From assembly GCA_963725235.1 (NCBI GenBank), contig CAVRXN010000002.1, positions 250,902 through 314,901 on the forward strand: DNA of 64,000 nt, written 5' to 3'. The notes beneath the pieces were generated by a model. The model was not told the DNA's origin. It was given only the letters and a program-made list of their open reading frames with translations, and did not search any database. The translations under genes and the position numbers were made by a program. This document shows positions 3,357 to 13,925 of the stretch, one piece after another (the first letter of the stretch is position 1; every line of letters starts with the position of its first letter). The DNA is from an uncultured bacterium (GTDB taxonomy: Bacteria; Patescibacteriota; Minisyncoccia; UBA6257; 2-01-FULL-56-20).

Positions 3357-4520
3357 TTATTTGTTCTTTCCCGCAGCCGCCCGCGAAGTTTTATTTCCCG
3401 ATACCGCGATCGGCTGAGGTGCCGGGGAAGGGCGATGTGATACTTCTTCTGGTCTCTGCGCCGTGACTTCACTGATCGGCAGATCTTCGCTCGATCTCGA
3501 GAAGACGAGCGAATGGATCTCATCGTAGTCGACATAGATGAAATCTCCCCGTCCGACTTGGTTGCTTGCTATCAGGTTTGAAAAAGGTGTAACGAGGTGA
3601 CGCTCGAGCGCGCGTTTGATATCCCGTGCGCCATATCTGATATCGGTACCTTCAGTTAGGAGAAAGTTCCGAGCCGAAGGGGTGAGTCGGAACAAAAATG
3701 GTTCAGCTATATTTCCGATTCTCCTCTGTATGTAATCGACTTCAATATCCAGGATTTGCTCAAGATCAATCGCTGTCAAAGGATGGAAGACGACAATCTT
3801 GTCGATACGGTTAATAAATTCGGGAGTGAATTTTTGCCGTGCCGCAGCATTGCCCACATTGCTGAGCTTTCGGTGCAGTTTGGTATCTGCGAGATCTGCA
3901 GGTTTACCCCCCGTGAATCCATATCCAGGATGGAGCATCTTACCCATTTCCACGGAGCCCAGATTGCTCGTCATGAAGATCATTGTCCGGGAAAAATCGA
4001 CCTTACGATTGTCGCCGAGTGTCAGTGTGGCTTTGTCGAGAATTCCCAGAAGGATATTCCAGAGGGCATCGCTTGCTTTTTCGATTTCATCGAAAAGAAC
4101 CAAGCTGAGCTTAATCGAATCGCCCCAGCAATGGTTCAGCACTTCTTGGCTCAAGAGCGGATGCGTCTCTCGATGCCCGAGATAGCCGGGAGGCGAACCG
4201 ATGAGCTTCGCAATTTCGTGGCTATGCTGGAATTCCGCGCAATCGATTTTTACAACCGCACGCGAGTTTTTGAACAGCGATTCCGCGGTTGCTTCGACGC
4301 TTCGCGTCTTTCCCGAACCCGTTGGCCCGAGAAAAAGAAAATTGGCAACAGGCCTTCCGAGAGCCGTCATGCCGGACAAAAATGATTGATACGCATCGGC
4401 AATCGCCCGAACTGCGGTATCTTGGCCAACGATCATCTTTCGGAGTTTCGTTAACAGTTCTTCACCTTCGGTGCCGCGTTGCGACGGGTCGAGCCGTTGC
4501 ATTTTGGGAGCCATAACCAA
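3357..4520 (-). CDS. Stand-alone AAA+ ATPase resembling the D2 module of ClpA/ClpB/ClpC
   Basis: Walker A GPTGSGKT, PPGYLGH, Walker B LVLFDEIEKA, FMTSNLG. No N-domain or D1 module within 387 aa. Confidence 0.8.
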   Translation of the reverse strand: MVMAPKMQRLDPSQRGTEGEELLTKLRKMIVGQDTAVRAIADAYQSFLSGMTALGRPVANFLFLGPTGSGKTRSVEATAESLFKNSRAVVKIDCAEFQHSHEIAKLIGSPPGYLGHRETHPLLSQEVLNHCWGDSIKLSLVLFDEIEKASDALWNILLGILDKATLTLGDNRKVDFSRTMIFMTSNLGSVEMGKMLHPGYGFTGGKPADLADTKLHRKLSNVGNAAARQKFTPEFINRIDKIVVFHPLTAIDLEQILDIEVDYIQRRIGNIAEPFLFRLTPSARNFLLTEGTDIRYGARDIKRALERHLVTPFSNLIASNQVGRGDFIYVDYDEIHSLVFSRSSEDLPISEVTAQRPEEVSHRPSPAPQPIAVSGNKTSRAAAGKNK

Positions 4521-4612
4521 CCTCGCTTTCTTGCCTGATGGCAGTATAAATATTACTATCTACTATTCTCACCCTACACCCAATACAATTTTTTTGCCAG
4601 TTCGTGTCTCCT

Positions 4613-6859
4613 CTACCATCCCTCCACCATCAACATCTTCTCCGGCCGGAAAATTTGGTACACCGCTTCCGTAATGTACGGCATGAACGGATGGAGCATC
4701 TTCAGCGACTCGAGTAATAAATATTCGAGCAGCGCATACGATGTCGCTTTCTCTTCGGCGCTGCCATCGCGCAACCGCGATTTTTCAGCTTCGATGATCT
4801 TATCCGCCAAAGTGTGCCAGATATAGTGGTAGATTTTTTCGGAGGCGAGATGGAATTCGTATGCATCGAGGTGCGCCGTAATCTCGGTTTTCAGCGCGGC
4901 GATTTCTTTTATATATTCATGTTCGGCGTGGGTATGCGCCGCAGTCGCGTTCCGGTCGGTCGTCTCTCCTGTCTCTTTGTCTCCTTGTCTCTGTGTCTCT
5001 CCTGTCATCTTCACAAACCTCGCAATATTCCAAATCTTCGTCGCAAAGTTGCGATAGCCCTTCACGCGCTGCTCGTCGAACTTAACATCATTGCCCGGCG
5101 CGGCGCCGACGATCAGCGCCATCCGCAGCGCGTCCGCACCGTACTTGTCGGCGAGCTCGACCGGGTCGATGCCGTTACCTTTCGACTTGCTGAACTTTTC
5201 GCCCTTCGCGTCGCGCACGATGCCGTGGATATAGACGGTTTTAAACGGCACCTCGCTGAGGAGCGCGCCACTCATCAGAATCATGCGGGACACCCAAAGA
5301 TAAAGAATTTCATAACCCGGAGCCATGAACGAATTAGGGAAATACGTTTTGAAATCTGCCGCCGAAGTATCCGGCCAGCCTAATGTAGAAAAAGGCCACA
5401 TTCCGGACGAGAACCAAGTGTCAAATGTATCTGGATCCTGCTGCCATCCATCACCATGCGGCGGTTCGATACCGATATAAATTTCTTCACCTTTATACCA
5501 AGCCGGTATTCGGTGGCCAAACCAAAGCTGACGCGAAAGGCACCAATCGCGAAGATTATCGATCCAATTGAAATAGTTTTTCTCAAATCGCTCCGGCAGG
5601 ATTTTTACTTTGCCGCTTTCGACCGCATCTCGCATCATCTCTTTAATAGTAATTTCCTGTCCATCCCTTTTAATTTTCGCATCCACGCTAAGGAACCATT
5701 GCAATTTCGGGAGCGGTTCGATAACAGCACCAGTGCGTTCGGCGATCGAGATATTCTGGGTAATATCCTCTTCCTTTTCTAACAAATCATCAGTCCGGAG
5801 CATTTCGACGATCTTATCTCGGGCTTCGGTTGTCTTTAGCCCATTTAAAGAACTCTCAGGCGCATTCGTTAATTCCATTCGCGCATGTTCATTAATGACC
5901 GGAATAACGGAGAGATAATGTTTTTGAGACATCTCCCAATCGATCATGCTATGGGCGGGCGTAACACCTAAGGCGCCAGTGCCAAAATCTTTTTCCACGG
6001 AATCGTCGCCGATAATTTTTATCGTAAGGGAAACATCACAGAATGTTCCGGTGAATTCTTTTCCAATCAAATAACGATAGCGTTCGTCGGTTGGATGAAC
6101 TGCAACAGCAGTATCGCCGACTTTGGTTTCGGGACGTGTAGTCGAGATCGAGATAGGGAAGTCCCTCCAATAACGGAAGGTATATAATTTTCCTTTGCGC
6201 TCTTCGTGGAGAACTTCGTCATCCGAGATAACCGTTTGCCCTTTTGGATCCCAGTTTACAACGCGCAAGCCCCGATAGATCAACCCGAGGTCATACATTT
6301 TTTTGAACGCAGTCCGGACGGCGAGCGAGCGCGGCGCGTCCAAAGTATACGCCTCGCGGCTCCAGTCGAGCGATGCGCCGAGCCGCTTCACCTGGCGAAC
6401 GATCGTGTCGTGCGATTCCTGGGCGAATGCTTCGACGCGGCGGAGGAATTCCTCACGGCCGAGGTCGTGCTTGGTCAGCTTATGCGTTTTTCCATCCGGA
6501 CCGACAGGCCCATCTTCCTTCGCCAAATCTTTTTCGACGCGCGACTGCGTCGCGATCGCCGCATGGTCCGTGCCCGGCACCCAGAGCGTCCGCTTGCCCC
6601 GCATGCGCTCGTAGCGGATGACCGCATCCTGGATCGAGTGCTCGAACGCGTGGCCGATGTGCAGCGTGCCGGTAACGTTCGGCGGCGGCAGGACGAGCGA
6701 GAACGGCTCCGCACCCGCGGCCGTCACCCCGCGCTCGACGCACACGTCCGGATTAAAAAACCCCGACTGCTCCCAGGCGGCGTAGATGCGTGCTTCGATT
6801 TCCTTGATGTCGTAGCGGGGGTCCATAGATTTGGCAGCGAATAGAGCCACGGTAACCAT
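4613..6859 (-). CDS. valS: Valine--tRNA ligase (compact form)
   Basis: PPPNVTGTLHIGHA (HIGH), KFSKSKGN (KMSKS), WCLSRQLWFGHRIPAWY. At 748 aa it lacks the long C-terminal coiled coil. Confidence 0.9.
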   Translation of the reverse strand: MVTVALFAAKSMDPRYDIKEIEARIYAAWEQSGFFNPDVCVERGVTAAGAEPFSLVLPPPNVTGTLHIGHAFEHSIQDAVIRYERMRGKRTLWVPGTDHAAIATQSRVEKDLAKEDGPVGPDGKTHKLTKHDLGREEFLRRVEAFAQESHDTIVRQVKRLGASLDWSREAYTLDAPRSLAVRTAFKKMYDLGLIYRGLRVVNWDPKGQTVISDDEVLHEERKGKLYTFRYWRDFPISISTTRPETKVGDTAVAVHPTDERYRYLIGKEFTGTFCDVSLTIKIIGDDSVEKDFGTGALGVTPAHSMIDWEMSQKHYLSVIPVINEHARMELTNAPESSLNGLKTTEARDKIVEMLRTDDLLEKEEDITQNISIAERTGAVIEPLPKLQWFLSVDAKIKRDGQEITIKEMMRDAVESGKVKILPERFEKNYFNWIDNLRDWCLSRQLWFGHRIPAWYKGEEIYIGIEPPHGDGWQQDPDTFDTWFSSGMWPFSTLGWPDTSAADFKTYFPNSFMAPGYEILYLWVSRMILMSGALLSEVPFKTVYIHGIVRDAKGEKFSKSKGNGIDPVELADKYGADALRMALIVGAAPGNDVKFDEQRVKGYRNFATKIWNIARFVKMTGETQRQGDKETGETTDRNATAAHTHAEHEYIKEIAALKTEITAHLDAYEFHLASEKIYHYIWHTLADKIIEAEKSRLRDGSAEEKATSYALLEYLLLESLKMLHPFMPYITEAVYQIFRPEKMLMVEGW

Positions 6860-6896
6860 TCGATTTTACCTGATTTTTCAGCATTTCCATAGGGGA

Positions 6897-6926
6897 TTGA
6901 CAAATCGTTGCCAAATGCTATATAAT
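6897..6926 (+). promoter_or_regulatory. Sigma70-like promoter for the DGR target gene
   Basis: TTGACA (6897-6902), 18-nt spacer, TATAAT (6921-6926). AAGGAGG Shine-Dalgarno before ATG 6974. Confidence 0.5.
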
Positions 6927-6973
6927 ATAAGTGTTCTTTAACAACTCTCTACGGAGAAAATTCAACAAGGAGG

Positions 6974-7873
6974 ATGATAACGATGACACCGTCGATTACA
7001 TCCAGCATCACCGAAGGTCAGGCGAAGCAGTATCGCCGTTTTGTCGAGGACGCGACCAAGAATGGTTGCGATCTCGCGCTGCAAGAAATTCCGCTCGATA
7101 AAGACGGATTGCAGAAACTCTTTGAGCGTGGCGACGAGTTCAGCGTGACCATCGCACGAGCAATCGCCGACACGACTCGCGAGTTGTCGCTCAGCAACCA
7201 GTTTGCGAACGAAGAAGTTCGTTCCAGCTGCACCTATCCGAAGAAGTATCGCGTCAGGGACATAATTGGGCAGACGAATGCCCTGCGTCAACTTTTCTCG
7301 GGCGTCGGATTTGCGGATGAGGAACTGGCCCAGCGGCCGCTTCCCGTCGGAGCTGAAGGATGGTTTGCCATCCCGCGCTGGGAAAATATCGCCGCGACTT
7401 ACAATGACGCGTTACAAAAAGTTCTCGCACTCATCAAATCCAAGCGGACATTCTACAATTTCCGTGAGGGCGAGTTGGGCGAGAACCAACTGAAGCAGAC
7501 CGAACGCGCCATTGCCGCATGGAAGAAACTTGGCGAATCGCAGAAAGGCGACATTCTGATTGTTGCGGCGCAATTCGGGTTGCGACATCGGGGACGTTCC
7601 GTCCGCCGCGCTCGCGAGGTGTTCATAGCCAATGAATTCGGCCTCGGCGCTTTCGCATCTGGTATTATGCTGCTCACCCATCCCGAACGGGAAGAGAAGT
7701 GGGAGCAACTCCATATCGACTGCGCCGGAGATGAGTTTAGTCCGGATGCGGGCGGCCGGTTCGTGAGGGCGCCGATCTTCTACTTCAGCGACGACAGGCT
7801 GGAGTTCCGCACCAGCGATGTGGGCAACGCCAACGAGGACGATGGCTCCGCGTCGGGCTTCCTCCCGCAGTAA
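6974..7873 (+). CDS. DGR target (variable) protein, no signal peptide
   Basis: The last 44 codons are the VR that matches the TR. The C-terminus ends GSASGFLPQ. The N-terminal ~250 aa have no recognised motif. Confidence 0.85.
   Translation: MITMTPSITSSITEGQAKQYRRFVEDATKNGCDLALQEIPLDKDGLQKLFERGDEFSVTIARAIADTTRELSLSNQFANEEVRSSCTYPKKYRVRDIIGQTNALRQLFSGVGFADEELAQRPLPVGAEGWFAIPRWENIAATYNDALQKVLALIKSKRTFYNFREGELGENQLKQTERAIAAWKKLGESQKGDILIVAAQFGLRHRGRSVRRAREVFIANEFGLGAFASGIMLLTHPEREEKWEQLHIDCAGDEFSPDAGGRFVRAPIFYFSDDRLEFRTSDVGNANEDDGSASGFLPQ
7738..7871 (+). repeat. DGR variable repeat (VR)
   Basis: 134 nt aligned without gaps to 8222-8355, with 14 differences. 13 of them fall where the TR has A. 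Confidence 0.85.
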
Positions 7874-8221
7874 ATCGCTCCTTGAGATCTCGAATGCTCG
7901 GGCCTTTGATTTTTTCTTTTTGATCCCTTGCATCCGAATTTTTCAGGCCATTCGCACTTATTGCGGGTGGCTTGCTTCTTTTCTATAATTCATTCGAGCT
8001 TAGGCCATTGCGCGGTTGTCTATGGATAGCCGTCGCCGAACTCTCTCTTCAAAAAGAGAAGCCAGAATCCGAACGATTACGATTTTTCGGAGCGTGCTGT
8101 CTTGGGGAGATTACTGCTTTGCTCCTGCCTTGCGCGGATGCTTTTTCCGAAGCTGCCGCCGAATAAGTTCAGGAATGAGAGGCTTGCCTCGAACTCCGGT
8201 GACGTGAATGGGCGGGGGCAA

Positions 8222-8355
8222 TAGTCCGAATGCGGACGGCCAGTTCGTGAAGGCGCCGATCTTCAACTTCAACGACGACAAGCTGAAGTTCAACACCAAC
8301 GATGTGGGCAACGCCAACGAGAACTATGGCTCCGCGTCGGGCTTCCTCCCGAAGT
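8222..8355 (+). repeat. DGR template repeat (TR)
   Basis: Non-coding copy of the VR, rich in AAC codons in the VR reading frame (aac ttc aac gac gac aag ctg aag ttc aac acc aac). Confidence 0.85.
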
Positions 8356-8375
8356 CGCTGCCCCAAGAGATGAGG

Positions 8376-8400
8376 ATGCCCCCGATCAATTCGGGGGCAT
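8376..8400. other. Perfect 10-bp GC-rich hairpin between the TR and the avd 3' end
   Basis: ATGCCCCCGA-tcaat-TCGGGGGCAT. It lies 20 nt after the TR and 7 nt beyond the avd stop. No clean T-run on either strand. Confidence 0.5.
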
Positions 8401-8407
8401 TGCTTCA

Positions 8408-8761
8408 TTACTGCTTTGTTGATCGTATCCATCCACCGATCTGCCGACCGATTTCATCAACGATTGTCTGAAGCGCGAGATACTTCTTTGCGTCGATCGC
8501 TTTCGTCTCTTTCATGAGCCGAATAAAAATGCGGAGAAAATTCAGTTTGATACTTGCACGCTCGAGAACGGCAGTTTTATCACTTCCAACTTTCGGCAAT
8601 TTGCTGGCCGTTAGGATACTTTCTAAGACATCGAGAATAATCAGCTCGCATCGTTCATAGATGGCATATCGGTCCTGTTTCGGAATAAGGTTTCGGTAGC
8701 TATAAAACGTTTTGTAGAGGTCGTAGGTTTGTTTGAAGATGGGTATATCAAAGTCGTCCAT
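8408..8761 (-). CDS. avd: DGR accessory variability determinant (Avd, four-helix-bundle family)
   Basis: 117 aa and helical. N-terminal IPIFKQTYDLYK and C-terminal EIGRQIGGWIRS fit the Avd / 23S-IVS four-helix-bundle pattern. Located between the TR and the RT. Confidence 0.8.
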   Translation of the reverse strand: MDDFDIPIFKQTYDLYKTFYSYRNLIPKQDRYAIYERCELIILDVLESILTASKLPKVGSDKTAVLERASIKLNFLRIFIRLMKETKAIDAKKYLALQTIVDEIGRQIGGWIRSTKQ

Positions 8762-8775
8762 ATAATTATTTTTTA

Positions 8776-9833
8776 ATGAAAATTTATCGCGACCTGTTCG
8801 ATCGTATCATCGCTCTCAAAAACCTATTCACCGCGTGGGAGACATTCAAGCAGGGGAAGAGAAGTAAGATCGATGTCATTGCGTTCGAGCGTGATCTTGA
8901 GCAGAATATTTTTCAGTTGCGACGAGATCTGCAGAGGAAAACGTACAGACATGGTTCGTACGCCGGCTTCTATATTCACGATCCGAAGCAGCGCCATATC
9001 CACAAAGCGGCGGTTCGCGATCGCGTTTTGCATCACGCCGTCTTCTCGGCGATCAATCCGATATTCGAGCCGACTTTTATCCCTACTTCGTTTTCCTGTC
9101 GCGTCGGATTCGGAACGCATAAAGGATTCGAAGTGCTTGTTGGCATGCTTCGGAAATGCGCTCAGAATAATACGCGCCCATGCTTTGTCTTGAAAGCAGA
9201 TATACGAAAATTCTTCGACAGCGTTGACCACGATATTCTACTCGAAATTTTGGCAAAACGGATTCAGGATGAAGACGCGATGTGGCTCTTGCGCGAAATC
9301 GTAAAAAGTTACGTAATTAAACAGAGAAGAGAGAGAGAGAGTTCCAAGTCGAATCCAAAAATGGCATTCCTATCGGTAATCTGACCTCGCAATTGTTCGC
9401 GAATGTCTATATGAATGAGTTTGATCAATTTATTAAGCATGAATTGCGAGTGAAAAATTATGTCCGTTATACCGATGATTTCGTGATCGTAAGCGACCGG
9501 CAAGAATATCTGGAAAAATTATTGCCGCGGATTGCAGAATTCTTACAATCTCGACTATCGCTCATACTACATCCAAAGAAAATCATACTTCGACCGTTTC
9601 ATCAAGGCATCGATTTTCTGGGCTATATAGCTTTACCAAAATATCGATCCATTCGCACGAAAACGAAGCAGAGAATTTTCAGGAAAATTGGCTACCGAAT
9701 CGCTGAATATGAACGAGGCCATCTTTCAAAAGATACGCTGAACCAGGTTTTCCAATCGTATCTTGGGGTTTTATCTCACGCCGATACGTATGAATTACAA
9801 AAGCGACTACTTAATGAATTTCCGTTGGGATAG
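8776..9833 (+). CDS. DGR reverse transcriptase, reading frame interrupted inside an (AG)7 tract
   Basis: Pieces 8776..9384 (frame 1) and 9321/9393..9833 (frame 0). Motifs KADIRKFFDSVDH, GIPIGNLTSQLFANVYMNEFD (DGR-type IGxxxSQ) and RYTDDFVIV (YxDD). Confidence 0.85.
9328..9341 (+). repeat. (AG)7 dinucleotide tract at the RT frameshift site
   Basis: agagagagagagag, preceded by agaga. Both RT reading frames are open only across this tract. Confidence 0.9.
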
Positions 9834-9895
9834 TAAAGGCATTGGGCAGATTGGAGCTCTTGCATCCCACTCCCATTTCTGCTATTCTATTCACC

Positions 9896-10111
9896 ATGGC
9901 AATCGAAGCACGAAAACGGGAAGGGGAAGCAGGCAACGCCCTCTTATACAGCTTCACCCGCAAGGTGAAGCGCAGCGGCATATTAAAAGAGGTGCGCAAT
10001 CGCAAGTTCTATAAGCGTACCGTCAGCCGCATCAAGCGCCGCTCATCCGCGATCCACCGCGAGGAGAAGAAAGCTGAAGTGGAGCGCATGAAGAAGCTTG
10101 GCCTGCTCTAG
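9896..10111 (+). CDS. rpsU: 30S ribosomal protein S21
   Basis: ATG 9896 inside track ORF 9842..10111. Motifs ALLYSFTRKVKRSGILKEVRNRKFYKRTVSRIK. Confidence 0.85.
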   Translation: MAIEARKREGEAGNALLYSFTRKVKRSGILKEVRNRKFYKRTVSRIKRRSSAIHREEKKAEVERMKKLGLL

Positions 10112-10152
10112 GACCTAGCGCACTCGCGTGGGCGACATGATATAATAGACGA

Positions 10153-10614
10153 ATGCTGTACGAACAGATCAACGCCGACCTGAAGACCGCAATGAAGGCG
10201 CACGAGCAATCGCGCGTCGAAGTTTTGCGTTTCGTGTTGTCAGGATTAAATAATGTTAAAAAAGAGAAAGAGATTAAAGAGCCAGGTGCGACGCTGACGG
10301 ACGAGGAAACGATTTCGACGCTGCAGAAAGAGGTGAAGCGCCGCCGCGACTCGATTGAACTTTTTAAGCAGGGGAATCGCGATGACCTGGTCACGAAAGA
10401 AGAAGGCGACCTCGCGATTATCGCAGCATACCTGCCGAAAGAATTGACGCGCGAGGAAATAGAAAAAATTGTCGACGATGCAATTGCCACGGTCAGCGCC
10501 GCCACCGGCGCGAAAGATTTTAACAGCGTAATGAAGGAGACGATGAAAGCGGTCAAAGGCCGCGCGGATGGGAAAGCGGTGGGCGAGATTATCAAGGCGA
10601 AATTGGGGAGTTAA
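10153..10614 (+). CDS. yqeY: GatB/YqeY domain protein
   Basis: N-terminus INADLKTAMKA...RVEVLR and the overall 150-aa helical pattern are typical of YqeY. Confidence 0.85.
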   Translation: MLYEQINADLKTAMKAHEQSRVEVLRFVLSGLNNVKKEKEIKEPGATLTDEETISTLQKEVKRRRDSIELFKQGNRDDLVTKEEGDLAIIAAYLPKELTREEIEKIVDDAIATVSAATGAKDFNSVMKETMKAVKGRADGKAVGEIIKAKLGS

Positions 10615-10615
10615 T

Positions 10616-11029
10616 ATGGCGAAGTCGATTCGAACGACGGTTACCGAAGCCCAGCTGCACAAGCTCGTCAAAAAAATATTGCTCCAGCTCAAAAAGCGAG
10701 GTTACACCCTCGATATTTTTTTACTTCCGCACGCGGAGATAAAAAAGCTGAAAGCGCGATTTATAAAAAAAAAGACTGAGCCGAACGTCCTGGCCTTCCC
10801 CGAGCCAATCGCATTCCCGCACCCAGAATCCAGCCGGAATAAAAAATATCTCGGTGAAATATTTTTGAATAAAGATATTCTGAAAAAATCCCCCGAACGG
10901 ACAGCGCCATTGCTCTTGCATGGAATCCTGCACCTGCTTGGATATGACCATATAAAGAAAGCCGATGCAGTGAAAATGGAAGGATTGGAGGAGAAGATTT
11001 TAATGAAAGTTTCATCCGCAGAAAGATAA
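10616..11029 (+). CDS. ybeY: rRNA maturation endoribonuclease YbeY
   Basis: Zinc motif HGILHLLGYDH. ATG 10616 chosen directly after the yqeY stop. Confidence 0.85.
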   Translation: MAKSIRTTVTEAQLHKLVKKILLQLKKRGYTLDIFLLPHAEIKKLKARFIKKKTEPNVLAFPEPIAFPHPESSRNKKYLGEIFLNKDILKKSPERTAPLLLHGILHLLGYDHIKKADAVKMEGLEEKILMKVSSAER

Positions 11030-11087
11030 AAAAGTCCACGCAACGGAGTTGCGCGGAAGGTAAAGGGCGATATCCCAGAAAGCGAAA

Positions 11088-11240
11088 TCAGCTGATGCCG
11101 AGCTCTTTTTGATCGTCCTTCCATTTGACGGTCTTACAATTGATACATGGCTCGCCGATGTAGAGCTCTCCGGTCGGGCCTTCGATTAAAGGGATCGGCG
11201 GTCGAAAAGCGTGCTCGCATTGAGAAGGATCAGTATCCAT
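11088..11240 (-). CDS. Possible 50-aa protein (CxxC)
   Basis: Below the track cutoff. GGAGG lies about 13 nt upstream of the ATG. Translation MDTDPSQCEHAF...GEPCINCKTVKWKDD. Confidence 0.3.
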   Translation of the reverse strand: MDTDPSQCEHAFRPPIPLIEGPTGELYIGEPCINCKTVKWKDDQKELGIS

Positions 11241-11337
11241 AATGATTGAAAACCTCCGAACTCATCCTACCGCCGGAAGCCGGTCTTTGTCCACTTTTCC
11301 ACTATCCTTTTTAACCCTTTCTTCATATAATTGAGAT

Positions 11338-12585
11338 ATGAAATTTGGAGGCATGAACCAGGGCGGCGATTTTATCACGGGCCTCGACGTTGGCACGTCG
11401 TCGATCAAGCTCGTCGTTGCCGAACGGCGCGCACATCGGCCGGCGCTCTTGCACGTCCATAAAGAAATGTGCGGCGGGATGCGGAAGGGTGCGATAACAG
11501 AAATTTCAGAAGTGTCGCAGGCGGTCAACCGTGCGCTGACCGAGGCAAAAAAAATCTCGAAAGCGGCAACGAAAAGAATTTACGTCAGCATCGGCACGCC
11601 ACTCGTTAAATTGCAATCATCGCGCGGCATCGTCGCCGTTTCGCGCGCCGACGCAGAGATTTATCAGGACGACATCGACCGCGCGAAGCGGGCAAGCGAA
11701 GCCGTCAATCTGCCGCAGAACCGGATGATTTTGCATACGATCGTAAAAGAATTCATGGTCGACGGCGTTGGCGATATCGCCGATCCACTCGGCCTTTCAG
11801 GCAGCCGTCTCGAAGTCCAGTCATTGATCATCGACGCTTTCGCACCGCATATCAAAACGCTCATCCACGCCGTCGAGCTCGCCGGCGGCGACATCGCCGG
11901 CATGATTTTCAGTCCGCTCGCTGCCGCCCGTGCCGCACTTTCGAAACGCCAGCGCGATCTCGGCGCCGCAATTATCGACATCGGTTTCGGAACGACCGGC
12001 GTCGCCGTCTTCGAAGAAAATAAATTGGTGACGACCGCAAAGTTTCCGGTCGGTGCCGGAAATATTTCGAACGACCTCGCGGTCGGATTAAAAATCGGCG
12101 TCGATGCCGCGGAAGCAGTCAAGCTCCACTATGGCTATGCGTTCGCAAAAGACGTCAACCAAAAAGAACAAGTCGAATTAAAAAAATTCACGCCCGAAGC
12201 GCGTTCGACGGTTTCGCGACGTTTCATCGCGGAGATTATAGAGAGCCGCCTCGAAGAGATTTTCGATCTTGTTAATAATGAATTAAAACTCGTGCAGAAA
12301 TTCGGTGAATTGCCGGGCGGTGTCGTCCTTGTTGGCGGGGGAGCAAAACTGCCGGGCCTGACGGATCTCGTCAAGCAGGAGATGCGACTGTCGACGCAGG
12401 TCGGCAGCGCGATTTCGAGCGAATGGGAAGCCGACGGCGGCGCATTCAAAGAATACCTCGAGGATCCAGAGTTTGTGGACGCTTTTGGCCTGGTTCTTGA
12501 AGGCATGAATATCGAGGGTTGGACGACCGAAAAGCAAGGCCCGAAGATTGATATCAAGGGGATTTGGAAGTATTTTACGCCGTAA
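11338..12585 (+). CDS. ftsA: Cell division protein FtsA
   Basis: Actin-like ATPase start ITGLDVGTSSIKLVV, plus GGGAKLPGL. Immediately upstream of ftsZ. Confidence 0.9.
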   Translation: MKFGGMNQGGDFITGLDVGTSSIKLVVAERRAHRPALLHVHKEMCGGMRKGAITEISEVSQAVNRALTEAKKISKAATKRIYVSIGTPLVKLQSSRGIVAVSRADAEIYQDDIDRAKRASEAVNLPQNRMILHTIVKEFMVDGVGDIADPLGLSGSRLEVQSLIIDAFAPHIKTLIHAVELAGGDIAGMIFSPLAAARAALSKRQRDLGAAIIDIGFGTTGVAVFEENKLVTTAKFPVGAGNISNDLAVGLKIGVDAAEAVKLHYGYAFAKDVNQKEQVELKKFTPEARSTVSRRFIAEIIESRLEEIFDLVNNELKLVQKFGELPGGVVLVGGGAKLPGLTDLVKQEMRLSTQVGSAISSEWEADGGAFKEYLEDPEFVDAFGLVLEGMNIEGWTTEKQGPKIDIKGIWKYFTP

Positions 12586-12614
12586 AAGAAGCATGCTAGA
12601 ATTATGAAAATTTC

Positions 12615-13925
12615 ATGAAAAAGAACAATAGCCAAGATAAGTTCCAGCCTCTGCGGGCAAACGTAAAAGTTATCGGCATCGGCGGCGGCGGTAGCAATGC
12701 GGTTTCGCGGATGGCAAAAGATTTTTATCGCGGCGTCGACTTTATCGCGATCAATACGGATCATCAGGACCTCGATCACTGCGCAGTCAAACACAAGCTC
12801 TACATCGGAAAAAGTTTGACGAAGGGATTGGGCACCGGCATGAACCCGGACATCGGCCGGCAAGCGGCTGAAGAAAATCGCTCGGAGATCGCGGAAGCGG
12901 TGCAGGGTGCGGATCTCGTTTTCTTGTCGGCGGGCCTCGGTGGCGGCACCGGTTCCGGCGCCACGCCAATTGTCGCGGAAGCCGCAAAACAGTCAGGCGC
13001 ACTGACCGTCGCGGTCGTGACGAAACCATTTTCATTCGAAGGCGCACAGCGCGAGCGGATCGCTGCAGAAGCGCTGATGAAATTAAAAGATAAAGTGGAC
13101 GCGATTATCGTCGTACCGAACGATCGCATCTTTACGATCATCGGCAAAGACACGCCGATCCTCAAAGCGTTCGAAGCGATCGATGATGTGTTGCGCCGCG
13201 CTTTGAAAGGCCTCGTCGAAATTATCGCAATGCCGGGCATTATCAATGTCGACTTCGCCGACGTAAAAAATATTATGCAAGACGCGGGCGTCGCGATCGT
13301 TGGCGTTGGCGTCGCGAGCGGGCCAGAGCGCGCCGTTAACGCGGTCAACATGGCACTCCATTCGCCGCTCCTCGAAACAAGCCCCGAAGGCGCGAAAGCA
13401 ATTTTGCTCGGCATCTCCGGCGGCCGCGATCTGAAAATGACGGAAATTAACGAAGCAGCGAAAGTTATCGGCCAGGTCGCCGACCCGGGCGCGCGAATAA
13501 TTTTCGGTGCGTATTACGACCGGACATTGAAAGCCGGCCAGATAAAAGTGACGGTCGTCGCAGCAGGTTTCAATTCGAGCCAGGCGAATTCTTTGTTTGG
13601 GAGTGCGAACGGACCGCTCGCCGGACATTTTGGCGGCGGTACCGCTCCCGGCTCGAACCGTGAGTCGATGTTCGGATCGCGTCCGGAAACGCCATCGTTC
13701 GGTTCTTCGAAAAAACCGTATCGCGATCTTGATGAGCCAGCCGAATCGAGCTTCGCCGATGACGCGGCCGTGACTCCTGCGCCGAAGTTTAATCCGTATC
13801 CGATGCCGGCGAAAAAAACGGAAACGACAAACACAAACAAAGAGACAAAGGACTCGAAGGACAAGAACGGAAAAGAAAGTGACCCGTGGGACATTCCGGC
13901 GTTCTTACGGCGGCGCAAGAGATAG
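12615..13925 (+). CDS. ftsZ: Cell division protein FtsZ
   Basis: Tubulin signature GGGTGSGATPIVAE, NTDHQDL, and the C-terminal peptide DIPAFLRRR. Confidence 0.95.
   Translation: MKKNNSQDKFQPLRANVKVIGIGGGGSNAVSRMAKDFYRGVDFIAINTDHQDLDHCAVKHKLYIGKSLTKGLGTGMNPDIGRQAAEENRSEIAEAVQGADLVFLSAGLGGGTGSGATPIVAEAAKQSGALTVAVVTKPFSFEGAQRERIAAEALMKLKDKVDAIIVVPNDRIFTIIGKDTPILKAFEAIDDVLRRALKGLVEIIAMPGIINVDFADVKNIMQDAGVAIVGVGVASGPERAVNAVNMALHSPLLETSPEGAKAILLGISGGRDLKMTEINEAAKVIGQVADPGARIIFGAYYDRTLKAGQIKVTVVAAGFNSSQANSLFGSANGPLAGHFGGGTAPGSNRESMFGSRPETPSFGSSKKPYRDLDEPAESSFADDAAVTPAPKFNPYPMPAKKTETTNTNKETKDSKDKNGKESDPWDIPAFLRRRKR

What the first reader, a model, noticed from the sequence alone, without database searches (positions are those of the whole stretch)
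9321..9393. DGR reverse transcriptase frame is broken exactly in an (AG)7 tract: possible slipped-strand on/off switch
The N-terminal RT piece (frame 1) ends at 9384. The C-terminal piece with the catalytic motifs is open in frame 0 from 9321. The only region where both are open is agagaAGAGAGAGAGAGAG (9323-9341). Loss of one AG unit (2 nt) would fuse them into a single RT of about 350 aa. Dinucleotide repeats of this length are classic contingency loci. A phase-variable RT would toggle mutagenic retrohoming on and off at population level, which I am not aware of being described for DGRs. The alternative is an assembly or sequencing indel, since other single frameshifts exist in this window.
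Basis: partly seen in the sequence, partly recalled or inferred. Interest (0 to 1): 0.65.

Follow-up and report, generated by a model that had tools for sequence, protein, structure and literature searches.

The report
Repeat-tract on/off switch in DGR reverse transcriptase
The reverse transcriptase gene of this targeted-hypermutation element (a DGR) is thrown out of frame at an AG repeat, and the same repeat-plus-frame-break occurs in about three quarters of over a hundred related genes in ultra-small bacteria and archaea, which points to a slippage switch that turns hypermutation on and off.

Summary
A complete DGR (target gene with VR, TR, Avd, RT) sits at 6974-9833, and its RT is split into two frames around AGAGA(AG)7 (9323-9341). 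Losing one AG unit, or gaining 1 nt, gives a 351-aa RT.

It is not a local assembly error.
- Of 115 species-representative CPR/DPANN genomes with an (AG)≥6 tract in this RT loop, 87 (76%) are out of frame exactly there. In 63 of 69 untruncated cases both halves are otherwise complete.
- In an unbiased sample of 114 RT loci, all 11 split genes carry a simple repeat in this loop: (AG)n, poly-G, (CAGT)n or (AGAC)n. None of the 94 repeat-free genes is split.
- One population shows (AG)13, (AG)14 and (AG)15 alleles across ten samples. Only (AG)14 is intact, and the one (AG)14 contig that spans the VR carries a different VR from the two OFF contigs.
- Repeat-free RTs from the same assemblies are invariant.

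Best explanation: a slipped-strand contingency switch gating mutagenic retrohoming, currently OFF here. I found no prior description, but Paul et al. 2017 could not be read. For this window, the exact indel site and read-level heterogeneity remain unproven.

The parts
6974..7873 (+). DGR target gene (299-aa ORF; no Pfam family) with the variable region at its 3' end
   Evidence: ORF list; no Pfam hit; VR lies at its 3' end. The same gene is called as 296 aa in the independent Logan assembly.
7738..7871 (+). Variable region (VR)
   Evidence: 134-nt direct repeat with the TR, 90% identical. It has 14 mismatches, of which 13 are at TR adenines and one is TR T / VR G.
8222..8355 (+). Template region (TR)
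   Evidence: It is adenine-rich at the mismatched positions. The 87-aa ORF 8208-8471 over it has no family hit and is probably spurious.
8408..8761 (-). Avd accessory protein gene (117 aa)
   Evidence: Pfam PF22296 bAvd, E 1.3e-16. An identical protein is found in Logan sample ERR11523662.
8776..9384 (+). RT N-terminal half (202 aa, fingers part). It reads through the tract and ends at TGA 9382-9384.
   Evidence: RVT_1 positions 8-106; matches RT profile positions 1-188.
9323..9341 (+). Simple-sequence repeat AGAGA(AG)7, the proposed slippage switch. It encodes Arg-Glu repeats and has no stop codon in any forward frame.
   Evidence: A homologous tract sits at the same loop in 119+ genome loci. 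It encodes residues 182-188 of the fused protein, inside the segment 182-192 that has pLDDT below 50.
9321..9381 (+). Zone where both RT frames are open. Any -2 or +1 nt change here restores a single ORF.
   Evidence: Three-frame translation and ORF list.
9357..9362 (+). AAAAAT run between the tract and the GIPIGN codons. It is a possible secondary slippage site: adding one A, or a -1 slip of tRNA-Lys, would also restore the frame.
   Evidence: Read directly from the sequence. The analogy is with the (A)5T rescue site in the M. bovis mod1 study. No stable RNA structure lies downstream (z = -0.03). This is inference only.
9321..9833 (+). RT C-terminal half (palm and thumb: GIPIGNLTSQ at 9363-9392, then YTDD). 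There is no start codon before the motif.
   Evidence: RVT_1 positions 112-204; RT profile positions 185-345. The first start codon in this frame is TTG at 9393, downstream of the motif.

Best explanation
The AG tract is a hypermutable simple-sequence repeat placed in a disordered, length-tolerant surface loop of the DGR reverse transcriptase, just upstream of the catalytic palm motifs.

Proposed mechanism:
- Slipped-strand mispairing during replication adds or removes AG units.
- Because the unit is 2 nt, each step moves the downstream catalytic half into or out of frame.
- An in-frame allele makes a full RT with an (Arg-Glu)n loop, and mutagenic retrohoming of the TR into the VR can proceed.
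- An out-of-frame allele makes only a truncated fingers fragment, and the VR is frozen.
- Every OFF allele is one slippage step from ON.

The window's copy is in an OFF state and needs -2 or +1 nt.

The same device is a property of a large set of DGR RTs in CPR (Patescibacteria) bacteria and DPANN archaea. It uses AG repeats or, in other lineages, poly-G or tetranucleotide repeats. About three quarters of consensus genomes are OFF.

Shown here: the tract and frames; the recurrence; the link between repeat and frame break; length polymorphism with ON and OFF alleles in one natural population; the integrity of OFF cassettes.

Inferred: that switching is by replication slippage, is reversible, is selected for, and actually gates retrohoming.
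For: 1. This locus is a complete DGR.
- Avd is present (PF22296).
- The TR/VR pair has 13 of 14 mismatches at TR adenines.
- The RT's best solved relative is the Bordetella phage DGR RT 8ub7 (hmmsearch E 1.5e-60; Foldseek TM 0.84/0.89).

2. Recurrence.
- The pattern (AG)6 + 4-34 nt + GxPxGNLT codons found at least 119 loci in species-representative genomes. About 80 are CPR and about 30 are DPANN.
- It found none in 2.9 million viral contigs.
- Of 115 loci with both RT halves recognised, 28 are in frame, 47 are offset +1 and 40 are offset +2.
- In 85 of 87 split genes the tract lies inside the zone where both frames are open.
- Archaea (7/27 in frame) and bacteria (21/88) behave alike.

3. These are not pseudogenes.
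- Among untruncated loci, both halves are complete and free of stops in 36/38 and 27/31 out-of-frame genes, against 20/21 in-frame genes.
- TR/VR pairs are found in 61-67% of loci in every class.
- The fraction of mismatches at adenines is 94.1% (in frame), 94.0% and 96.8%.

4. Unbiased control: 114 RT loci picked only by the GIPIGNLTSQxFAN codons.
- Repeat in the loop and split: 11. Repeat and in frame: 9.
- No repeat and split: 0. No repeat and in frame: 94. Fisher p = 2.6e-10.
- The split genes without a long AG tract carry G10, (CAGT)11, (AGAC)15 or (GA)4 at the same loop.

5. Specificity. In 800 kb around the 115 loci, the RT tract is essentially the only dinucleotide repeat of 6 or more units: 113 loci have one and 2 have two.

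6. Divergence. Repeat-bearing RTs share a median of 45% amino-acid identity (minimum 31%) and are scattered on a crude tree.

7. Direct polymorphism.
- Ten contigs from ten samples carry an identical Avd (P0191). Sequence within about 1.4 kb upstream and 0.9 kb downstream of the tract is near-identical (0-2 mismatches) in 9 of the 10 contigs; L266 differs further upstream.
- Their tracts are (AG)13 in 2 contigs, (AG)14 in 5 and (AG)15 in 3.
- All three (AG)14 contigs that span the whole RT give one 356-aa RT. The (AG)15 contigs give 214 + 143 aa, and the one (AG)13 contig that spans the gene is also broken (189-aa piece called).
- The ON contig has a VR that differs at TR-adenine positions from the VR shared by two OFF contigs.
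- Negative controls: two repeat-free RT loci, partly from the same assemblies, are identical and intact in 10/10 and 9/9 contigs.

8. This organism. An independent assembly (Logan ERR11523662) is identical on both sides, apart from one SNP at 12048, but breaks at 9310 and restarts inside the tract with pure (AG)8 where the window has GA(AG)7.

9. Structure. The tract encodes residues 182-188 of the fused RT, inside the segment 182-192 that has pLDDT below 50, between a helix and GIPIGN. The Bordetella RT lacks 9 residues there.
Against: For this window:
- No reads were available, so length heterogeneity in this population is only hinted at.
- The tract is short, (AG)7, and interrupted.
- Compared with the closest intact homologue (77% identity, L001), the N frame stays in register through the tract (AGT TCC AAG against AGT TCC AGG). 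The 13-nt length difference lies between the tract and GIPIGN. The offset could therefore have arisen outside the tract.
- The VR is identical in the two assemblies of this organism, so there is no sign of ongoing diversification here.

For the family:
- In-frame alleles are not enriched: 24%, slightly below one third (p = 0.047). That fits a mostly-OFF switch, but also fits a repeat whose frame does not matter because of transcriptional or translational slippage.
- Reversibility, switching rate and the effect on retrohoming are untested.
- The link between the ON allele and a different VR rests on three contigs.
- Two relatives with 90.7% identical flanks have tracts of 71 and 35 nt in the same OFF frame.
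Confidence: 0.7

Rival explanations
1. Recoding rather than a DNA switch. RNA polymerase or the ribosome slips on the (AG)n tract, or on the adjacent A-run, so out-of-frame alleles still yield some full-length RT. The repeat would then act as an expression attenuator or noise generator, and the DNA frame would be nearly neutral. This is not exclusive of the main explanation.
For: - Frames are close to random, with no excess of in-frame alleles: 28/47/40, chi-square p = 0.09.
- Tracts reach 71 nt, longer than an RNA-DNA hybrid.
- (AG)n-frameshifted M. bovis mod1 reporters leak through frameshift suppression, including at an (A)5T site (bioRxiv 10.64898/2026.04.01.715767).
- The window has AAAAAT at 9357-9362, where a -1 slip or an added A restores the frame.
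Against: - The direction of the offset is not fixed (47 at +1, 40 at +2, 28 at 0), unlike programmed frameshift or realignment sites.
- Poly-G and tetranucleotide repeats occupy the same loop in other lineages. What these share is DNA-level frameshift mutability.
- DNA-level length alleles exist in one population.
- There is no stable RNA structure downstream of the tract in the window (z = -0.03).
Confidence: 0.2
2. Consensus or assembly error confined to this window. The real population carries an in-frame tract, for example pure (AG)10, and the deposited AGAGA(AG)7 lacks one G.
For: - The window's tract is exactly a pure (AG)10 minus one G, and AAAC(AG)10TTCC would be in frame.
- The independent Logan assembly shows pure (AG)8 or longer at the 3' side of the tract and breaks on both sides.
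- The 202-aa N-terminal product is on record only from the source genome.
Against: - The flanks are 100% identical between the two assemblies over about 9 kb, apart from one SNP, so the assembly is otherwise accurate.
- 76% of related genes, from many studies and assemblers, are out of frame at the same loop. The figure is unchanged when four Nanopore MAGs are excluded.
- Repeat-free RTs from the same assemblies are never broken.
- An out-of-frame consensus is therefore the expected state, not an anomaly.
Confidence: 0.12
3. The frame offset in this window arose outside the tract, by an indel in the variable segment between the tract and GIPIGN (9342-9362, for example in the A5 run). The AG tract would be a bystander that merely encodes an Arg-Glu loop.
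For: - From the conserved Ser-Tyr codons to TTCCA, the window and the closest intact homologue L001 both have 29 nt.
- Both read AGT TCC ARG after the tract.
- Between that point and GGNATTCC the window has 14 nt and L001 has 27 nt, a difference of 13, not a multiple of 3.
Against: - L001 is only 77% identical, and the loop varies in length and sequence among all homologues. The ON frame of this segment may therefore differ between lineages.
- Across the family, a frame break is tied to the presence of a repeat (0 of 94 repeat-free genes are split), so the repeat is not a bystander.
- The mutation rate of a 7-unit dinucleotide repeat should exceed that of the flanking 20 nt. This last point is established knowledge of slipped-strand mispairing, not tested here.
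Confidence: 0.15
4. A decaying DGR. The RT is a pseudogene, and the repeat expanded under relaxed constraint.
For: - One of the 14 VR/TR mismatches is not at an adenine.
- Relatives exist with Avd, TR and target but no adjacent RT (L006-L008).
- Wu et al. 2017 discarded over half of candidate DGRs for premature stops, truncations and similar defects (PMC5758913).
Against: - Both RT halves in the window are full length and match the profile as well as intact genes do (338 + 271 bits).
- Across the family, 63 of 69 out-of-frame genes have no other lesion.
- TR/VR adenine bias is equal in all frame classes.
- In-frame alleles with long tracts exist, up to 46-51 nt.
- ON and OFF alleles coexist in one population, and that population has two VR variants differing at TR-adenine positions.
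Confidence: 0.05
5. A split RT. The two halves are translated separately and assemble, with the purine-rich tract serving as a ribosome-binding site for the second half.
For: The tract is purine-rich and lies upstream of the C-terminal half.
Against: - Only 10 of 87 split genes have any ATG, GTG or TTG in the C frame between the tract and the GxPxGN motif (ATG in 2 of 87).
- In the window the first start codon in that frame is TTG 9393, after the essential motif.
- In-frame alleles encode one continuous protein.
Confidence: 0.03

Closest known systems
Simple-sequence-repeat contingency loci (slipped-strand phase variation). Examples are the (AG)n tract in the Mycoplasma bovis type III mod gene, tetranucleotide repeats in Haemophilus influenzae genes, and poly-G tracts in Neisseria and Campylobacter.
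   Same: - A repeat whose unit is not a multiple of 3 sits inside a coding sequence.
- ON and OFF alleles differ by single repeat units.
- Both states are found in natural populations.
- Different repeat types serve the same purpose.
- The (AG)n unit is the one studied in M. bovis mod1.
   Different: - The switched gene is not a surface antigen or a restriction-modification enzyme. It is the reverse transcriptase of a targeted hypermutation system, so one mutational switch gates another mutator.
- The repeat lies mid-gene in a disordered loop between the fingers and the palm, rather than near the 5' end.
- The hosts are uncultivated CPR bacteria and DPANN archaea, not host-adapted pathogens.
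- Switching rates are unmeasured.
Diversity-generating retroelement of Bordetella phage BPP-1 (bRT, Avd, TR, VR; PDB 8ub7)
   Same: - The parts are the same: a DGR-clade RT with the GIPIGxLTSQ motif, Avd, and a TR/VR pair with adenine-specific differences at the 3' end of a target gene.
   Different: - bRT has no repeat and is 9 residues shorter at this loop.
- To my knowledge, no frame switch is described for it.
- The gene order here (target, TR, Avd on the opposite strand, RT) appears to correspond to the arrangement Wu et al. call B3, which accounts for 90% of their CPR set (PMC5758913). I did not check this against their figure.
CPR/DPANN DGRs as catalogued by Paul et al. 2017 (Nat Microbiol 2:17045) and Wu et al. 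2017 (PMC5758913)
   Same: Same organisms, same RT clade and same cassette architecture.
   Different: [quoted passage not shown] They do not mention repeats in the RT.
- Roux et al. 2021 (PMC8144416) do not mention frameshifts.
- Paul et al. 2017 could not be read here, so I cannot exclude that they noted it.
Rescue of frameshifted genes by polymerase slippage: poly(A) tracts in insect endosymbionts, and programmed transcriptional realignment in IS elements (from my own knowledge)
   Same: Genes that are out of frame at a repeat in the DNA can still be expressed at a low level. This would explain why the frame looks unconstrained.
   Different: - Those cases use homopolymers, and for programmed sites a fixed shift direction.
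- Here the units are di- and tetranucleotides, the direction is not fixed, and DNA-level alleles differ between samples.
Phasevarions (phase-variable DNA methyltransferases that control regulons)
   Same: A phase-variable enzyme whose ON or OFF state changes a downstream, population-wide source of phenotypic diversity.
   Different: The downstream effect here would be genetic (rewriting of a variable region), not epigenetic.

Membership tests
Diversity-generating retroelement (DGR) | Reverse transcriptase of the DGR clade, with the motif-4 signature (I/L)GxxxSQ | tested here: met
   GIPIGNLTSQLFAN is encoded at 9363-9404. The best solved relative is the Bordetella phage DGR RT 8ub7 (E 1.5e-60; TM 0.84/0.89).
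Diversity-generating retroelement (DGR) | A TR/VR repeat pair whose differences fall at TR adenines | tested here: met
   VR 7738-7871 against TR 8222-8355: 13 of 14 mismatches are at TR adenines.
Diversity-generating retroelement (DGR) | VR at the 3' end of a target protein gene | tested here: met
   The VR ends 2 nt before the end of ORF 6974-7873. The fold of the target was not examined.
Diversity-generating retroelement (DGR) | Accessory protein Avd next to the RT | tested here: met
   PF22296 bAvd, E 1.3e-16, at 8408-8761 on the minus strand.
Diversity-generating retroelement (DGR) | An uninterrupted RT reading frame | tested here: not met
   In the window's consensus the RT is in two frames. 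This is the feature under study. 76% of repeat-bearing relatives share it.
Diversity-generating retroelement (DGR) | Demonstrated mutagenic retrohoming | not testable with these tools
   There is only indirect evidence. The VR differs from the TR at adenines. In a related population, contigs carry different VRs at TR-adenine positions.
Simple-sequence-repeat contingency locus (slipped-strand phase variation) | A repeat with a unit that is not a multiple of 3, inside the coding sequence and long enough to slip (about 5-6 or more dinucleotide units) | tested here: met
   (AG)7 preceded by AGAGA, at 9323-9341. Relatives have tracts of 12 to 71 nt.
Simple-sequence-repeat contingency locus (slipped-strand phase variation) | Repeat-number polymorphism among otherwise identical genomes | tested here: inconclusive
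   For this organism, two assemblies differ at 9326-9327 and the second breaks on both sides of the tract, but no reads were available. For a relative (the P0191 locus) the feature is met: (AG)13, (AG)14 and (AG)15 in ten samples, with 0-2 mismatches in the adjoining 1.4 kb and 0.9 kb in 9 of 10 contigs.
Simple-sequence-repeat contingency locus (slipped-strand phase variation) | Both ON and OFF alleles of an otherwise intact gene occur | tested here: met
   28 in frame and 87 out of frame among 115 genomes. 63 of 69 untruncated OFF genes have both halves complete. ON and OFF alleles occur in one population.
Simple-sequence-repeat contingency locus (slipped-strand phase variation) | The repeat is localised to the gene beyond the genomic background, or recurs independently | tested here: met
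   - It is the only dinucleotide repeat of 6 or more units in the 64-kb window.
- It is essentially the only one in 800 kb around the 115 loci.
- Five repeat unit types occur at the same loop.
- Repeat-bearing RTs are only 45% identical at the median.
Simple-sequence-repeat contingency locus (slipped-strand phase variation) | High-frequency reversible switching measured, with a phenotype | not testable with these tools
   This needs cultures, reporters or deep time-series reads.
Programmed ribosomal frameshift or programmed transcriptional realignment | The same direction of shift conserved among homologues | tested here: not met
   Offsets are +1 in 47, +2 in 40 and 0 in 28 of 115 loci.
Programmed ribosomal frameshift or programmed transcriptional realignment | A slippery site with a stimulatory downstream RNA structure | tested here: not met
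   The window has an A5T run, but the 99 nt after the tract fold no better than shuffled sequence (z = -0.03). This was not examined across the family.

The most novel reading that the evidence does not exclude
A large group of DGRs in CPR bacteria and DPANN archaea put their reverse transcriptase under a hypermutable repeat switch: (AG)n, poly-G or tetranucleotide repeats, all in the same disordered loop. At any time most cells hold their variable protein fixed while a minority diversify it. This would be a stochastic, heritable, reversible gate on targeted hypermutation, convergently evolved in two domains of life. Annotation pipelines have so far read it as 'broken RT'.
Probability: 0.6. 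Interest if true: 0.9.

Novelty: new variant of a known kind. Interest (0 to 1): 0.85.

Why it matters
How DGR hosts control diversification is poorly understood: when to mutate a ligand-binding protein, and how to keep a variant that works. A repeat switch in the RT gives a simple, testable answer for the lineages where DGRs are most abundant. Mutagenesis would be ON in a subpopulation and OFF, and heritably so, in the rest.

It also has practical consequences.
- Surveys that require an intact RT ORF will discard or mis-score roughly three quarters of these elements.
- Estimates of DGR prevalence and 'activity' in CPR/DPANN should therefore be revisited.
- The tract length becomes a readable marker of DGR state in metagenomic time series.
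- More broadly, it would extend contingency-locus biology from pathogens to uncultivated episymbionts, and to archaea.

Tried and rejected
1. Placing the window's indel with the closest intact homologue (L001, 77% identity). The comparison puts the length difference downstream of the tract. The homologue is too distant and the loop too variable for this to decide anything.

2. Exact look-up of the 202-aa N-terminal piece to find other assemblies. It is on record only from the source genome. The TTG-start C-terminal piece is not on record.

3. Other frameshifts in the window. Five overlapping same-strand ORF pairs scanned with Pfam gave no split gene.

4. Viral origin. The tract pattern gave 0 hits in viral contigs.

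5. Separate translation of the C-terminal half. Rejected, because start codons are lacking.

6. A frameshift-stimulating RNA structure. None found.

7. Close pairs among species representatives, to see tract changes. Only L011 and L063 qualified (tracts of 71 and 35 nt, same frame), which is uninformative.

I used Avd homologues from a protein search instead.
- P0166 turned out to have no adjacent RT.
- P0176 showed one OFF allele in two samples, plus a contig that ends inside the tract.

9. Literature. Six full-text searches and targeted reading found no description of repeats or phase variation in a DGR RT. Paul et al. 2017 is not held.
Full report
**What is in the window.**
Positions 6974-9833 hold a complete diversity-generating retroelement.
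- A 299-aa target gene (6974-7873) ends in a variable region (VR, 7738-7871).
- The VR is a 134-nt, 90%-identical copy of a template region (TR, 8222-8355).
- Of the 14 mismatches, 13 are at TR adenines.
- An Avd gene lies on the minus strand (8408-8761; PF22296, E 1.3e-16) and is followed by the reverse transcriptase.
- The RT is in two pieces. One is 8776-9384 (202 aa, RVT_1 positions 8-106). The other is a frame open from 9321 to 9833 (RVT_1 positions 112-204) that carries GIPIGNLTSQ and YTDD.
- Between them lies AGAGA(AG)7 at 9323-9341, the only dinucleotide repeat of 6 or more units in the 64 kb.
- Removing one AG unit gives a 351-aa protein that aligns end to end with 341-357-aa homologues from Patescibacteria.
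- Its best solved relative is the Bordetella phage DGR RT (8ub7; E 1.5e-60, TM 0.84/0.89).

- Both frames are open from 9321 to 9381, not only in the tract.
- A +1-nt change would repair the gene as well as a -2-nt change. Examples are restoring a G to make pure (AG)10, or A5 to A6 at 9357-9361.
- The closest intact homologue (P0001/L001, 77% identity) has G(AG)9 followed by TTCCAGG.
- From the conserved Ser-Tyr codons to TTCCA, both sequences have 29 nt, and both read AGT TCC ARG after the tract.
- The 13-nt length difference lies between the tract and GIPIGN.
- So the site of the offset in this window cannot be fixed from the sequence.

**An independent assembly of the same organism.**
- Logan contigs from ERR11523662 match the window exactly over 4408-9310, and over 9328-13614 apart from one SNP.
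- The first contig ends at 9310. The second starts inside the tract with pure (AG)8, where the window has GA(AG)7.
- The flanks are therefore reliable, and the tract is the one place where the assemblies disagree and break.
- Why the left contig stops 12 nt before the tract is unexplained.

**The tract is a family feature.**
- In the protein alignment, many homologues have Arg-Glu repeats at this loop. In the two whose DNA was fetched (P0001/L001 and P0013/L002) these are encoded by pure AGA-GAG runs.
- A relative with an Avd at least 90% identical (L005) has its RT split around (AG)13.
- I then scanned one genome per species (GTDB) for (AG)6, 4-34 nt, then GxPxGNLT codons. This pattern is blind to frame.
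- It returned none from 2.9 million viral contigs.
- I matched an RT profile to the three forward frames. In 115 loci with both halves recognised, the C-terminal half is in frame with the N-terminal half in 28, offset +1 in 47, and offset +2 in 40.
- In 85 of the 87 split genes the tract lies in the zone where both frames are open.
- Archaea (7/27 in frame) and bacteria (21/88) behave alike. Dropping four Nanopore MAGs changes nothing.
- In-frame alleles are, if anything, fewer than one third (p = 0.047).

**Not decay.**
- Among loci not cut by a contig or block end, both halves are complete and stop-free in 36/38 and 27/31 out-of-frame genes, against 20/21 in-frame genes.
- TR/VR pairs are detected equally often in the three classes (61-67%).
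- The share of mismatches at TR adenines is 94.1%, 94.0% and 96.8%.
- Start codons for a separately translated C-terminal half are lacking: 10 of 87 have any start codon, and 2 of 87 have ATG.

**Control without any repeat requirement.**
- I picked 120 metagenome contigs only by the codons for GIPIGNLTSQxFAN. Of these, 114 had both halves.
- With a non-triplet simple repeat in the 120 nt before the motif, 11 were split and 9 were in frame.
- Without one, 0 were split and 94 were in frame (Fisher p = 2.6e-10).
- The four split genes without a long AG tract carry G10, (CAGT)11, (AGAC)15 or (GA)4 at the same place. In-frame examples carry (CAGC)13, (AGAC)17 and (GA)25.
- Different repeat units converge on one loop. 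What they share is frameshift mutability, not the encoded peptide. This is the strongest argument that the property is selected.
- In 800 kb around the 115 genome loci, the RT tract is essentially the only dinucleotide repeat of 6 or more units.
- Repeat-bearing RTs are only 45% identical at the median and are scattered on a crude tree.

**Polymorphism in nature.**
- Using Avd homologues as handles, one Avd (P0191) was found with an identical protein sequence on contigs from ten samples.
- Sequence within about 1.4 kb upstream and 0.9 kb downstream of the tract differs by 0-2 nt in 9 of the 10 contigs; L266 has more mismatches further upstream.
- The tract is (AG)13 in two contigs, (AG)14 in five and (AG)15 in three.
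- The three (AG)14 contigs that span the whole gene encode one 356-aa RT. The (AG)15 contigs encode 214 + 143 aa, and the (AG)13 contig that spans the gene is also broken.
- Three contigs reach the VR. The (AG)14 contig has a VR that differs at TR-adenine positions from the VR shared by the (AG)13 and (AG)15 contigs.
- Two repeat-free RT loci, partly from the very same assemblies, are identical and intact in 10/10 and 9/9 contigs.
- A further repeat-bearing locus shows the same OFF allele in two samples, plus a contig that ends inside the tract.

**Why this loop.**
- In an AlphaFold model of the repaired RT (pLDDT 82), the tract encodes residues 182-188, inside the only internal low-confidence stretch besides residues 64-74 (182-192, pLDDT below 50). 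It lies between a helix and GIPIGN.
- The Bordetella RT lacks 9 residues there.
- (AG)n encodes Arg-Glu in all frames and contains no stop codon.
- The loop can therefore absorb any in-frame length, while any out-of-frame length cuts off the catalytic palm.

**Mechanism and rivals.**
- The best-supported reading is a slipped-strand contingency switch on the RT, and so on mutagenic retrohoming. The window's copy is OFF and one step from ON.
- A partly compatible rival is that transcriptional or translational slippage lets OFF alleles leak. It is supported by the near-random frames and by the M. bovis (AG)n study.
- The window's AAAAAT at 9357-9362 could serve as such a leak site, but no stimulatory RNA structure is present.
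- The shift direction is not conserved, so a programmed recoding site is unlikely.
- A consensus error at this one site cannot be excluded without reads, but it would not change the family-level result.

**Literature.**
- Full-text searches, and reading of Wu et al. 2017 and Roux et al. 2021, found no description of repeats or phase variation in a DGR RT.
- Paul et al. 2017, the main CPR/DPANN DGR paper, is not held. Novelty is stated with that reservation.

Noticed in passing
L006:3400-3753, L007:1582-1935, L008:1582-1935; also L269-L272 (Avd at 2501-2851): Close relatives of the window's Avd (91% identical) keep Avd, a TR-like ORF and a target gene. Next to Avd they have a 151-160-aa gene of unknown family instead of an RT. 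These are either RT-less DGR remnants or cassettes served by an RT encoded elsewhere.
   Followed up: no
window 9357-9362: An AAAAAT run lies 15 nt after the tract. Adding one A, or a -1 slip of tRNA-Lys, would also restore the RT frame (reading ...SSKSNPKNGIPIGN). An (A)5T motif is the rescue site reported for (AG)n-frameshifted M. bovis mod1 constructs.
   Followed up: partly
window 7841 (VR) / 8325 (TR): One VR/TR mismatch is not at a TR adenine (TR T, VR G; alignment column 122). Wu et al. note that CPR DGRs often have such substitutions.
   Followed up: no
L011:4813-4881 and L063:7090-7158: Two Wolfebacteria RTs with 90.7% identical flanks carry AG tracts of 71 nt and 35 nt. They differ by 36 nt and are in the same out-of-frame state.
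   Followed up: partly
L043:4902-4943 (minus strand): A composite repeat, (CT)7 directly followed by (GA)6, sits in the RT loop of a Nanopore-derived MAG. The RT is out of frame.
   Followed up: no
L129, L132, L162, L170, L245 (RT loop just upstream of the GIPIGN codons): Non-AG repeats occur at the same RT loop: (CAGT)11, (AGAC)15, G10, (CAGC)13 and (AGAC)17. The first three RTs are out of frame and the last two are in frame.
   Followed up: partly
window 9310/9311 and 12048: The Logan left contig stops at 9310, 12 nt before the tract begins, which tract-length variation alone does not explain. The only other difference between the two assemblies is a G/A SNP at 12048, inside the FtsA-like gene.
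   Followed up: no
window 4613-13925: The DGR is embedded among housekeeping genes: valS (4613-6859, minus strand), rpsU-like S21 (about 9896-10111), YqeY/GatB-like (10153-10614), YbeY, ftsA and ftsZ. A related tract-less DGR (L249) also lies next to S21 and YqeY genes. This suggests a conserved chromosomal position rather than a mobile element.
   Followed up: no
window 6974-7873: The DGR target protein (299 aa) has no Pfam family. Its fold and function were not examined.
   Followed up: no
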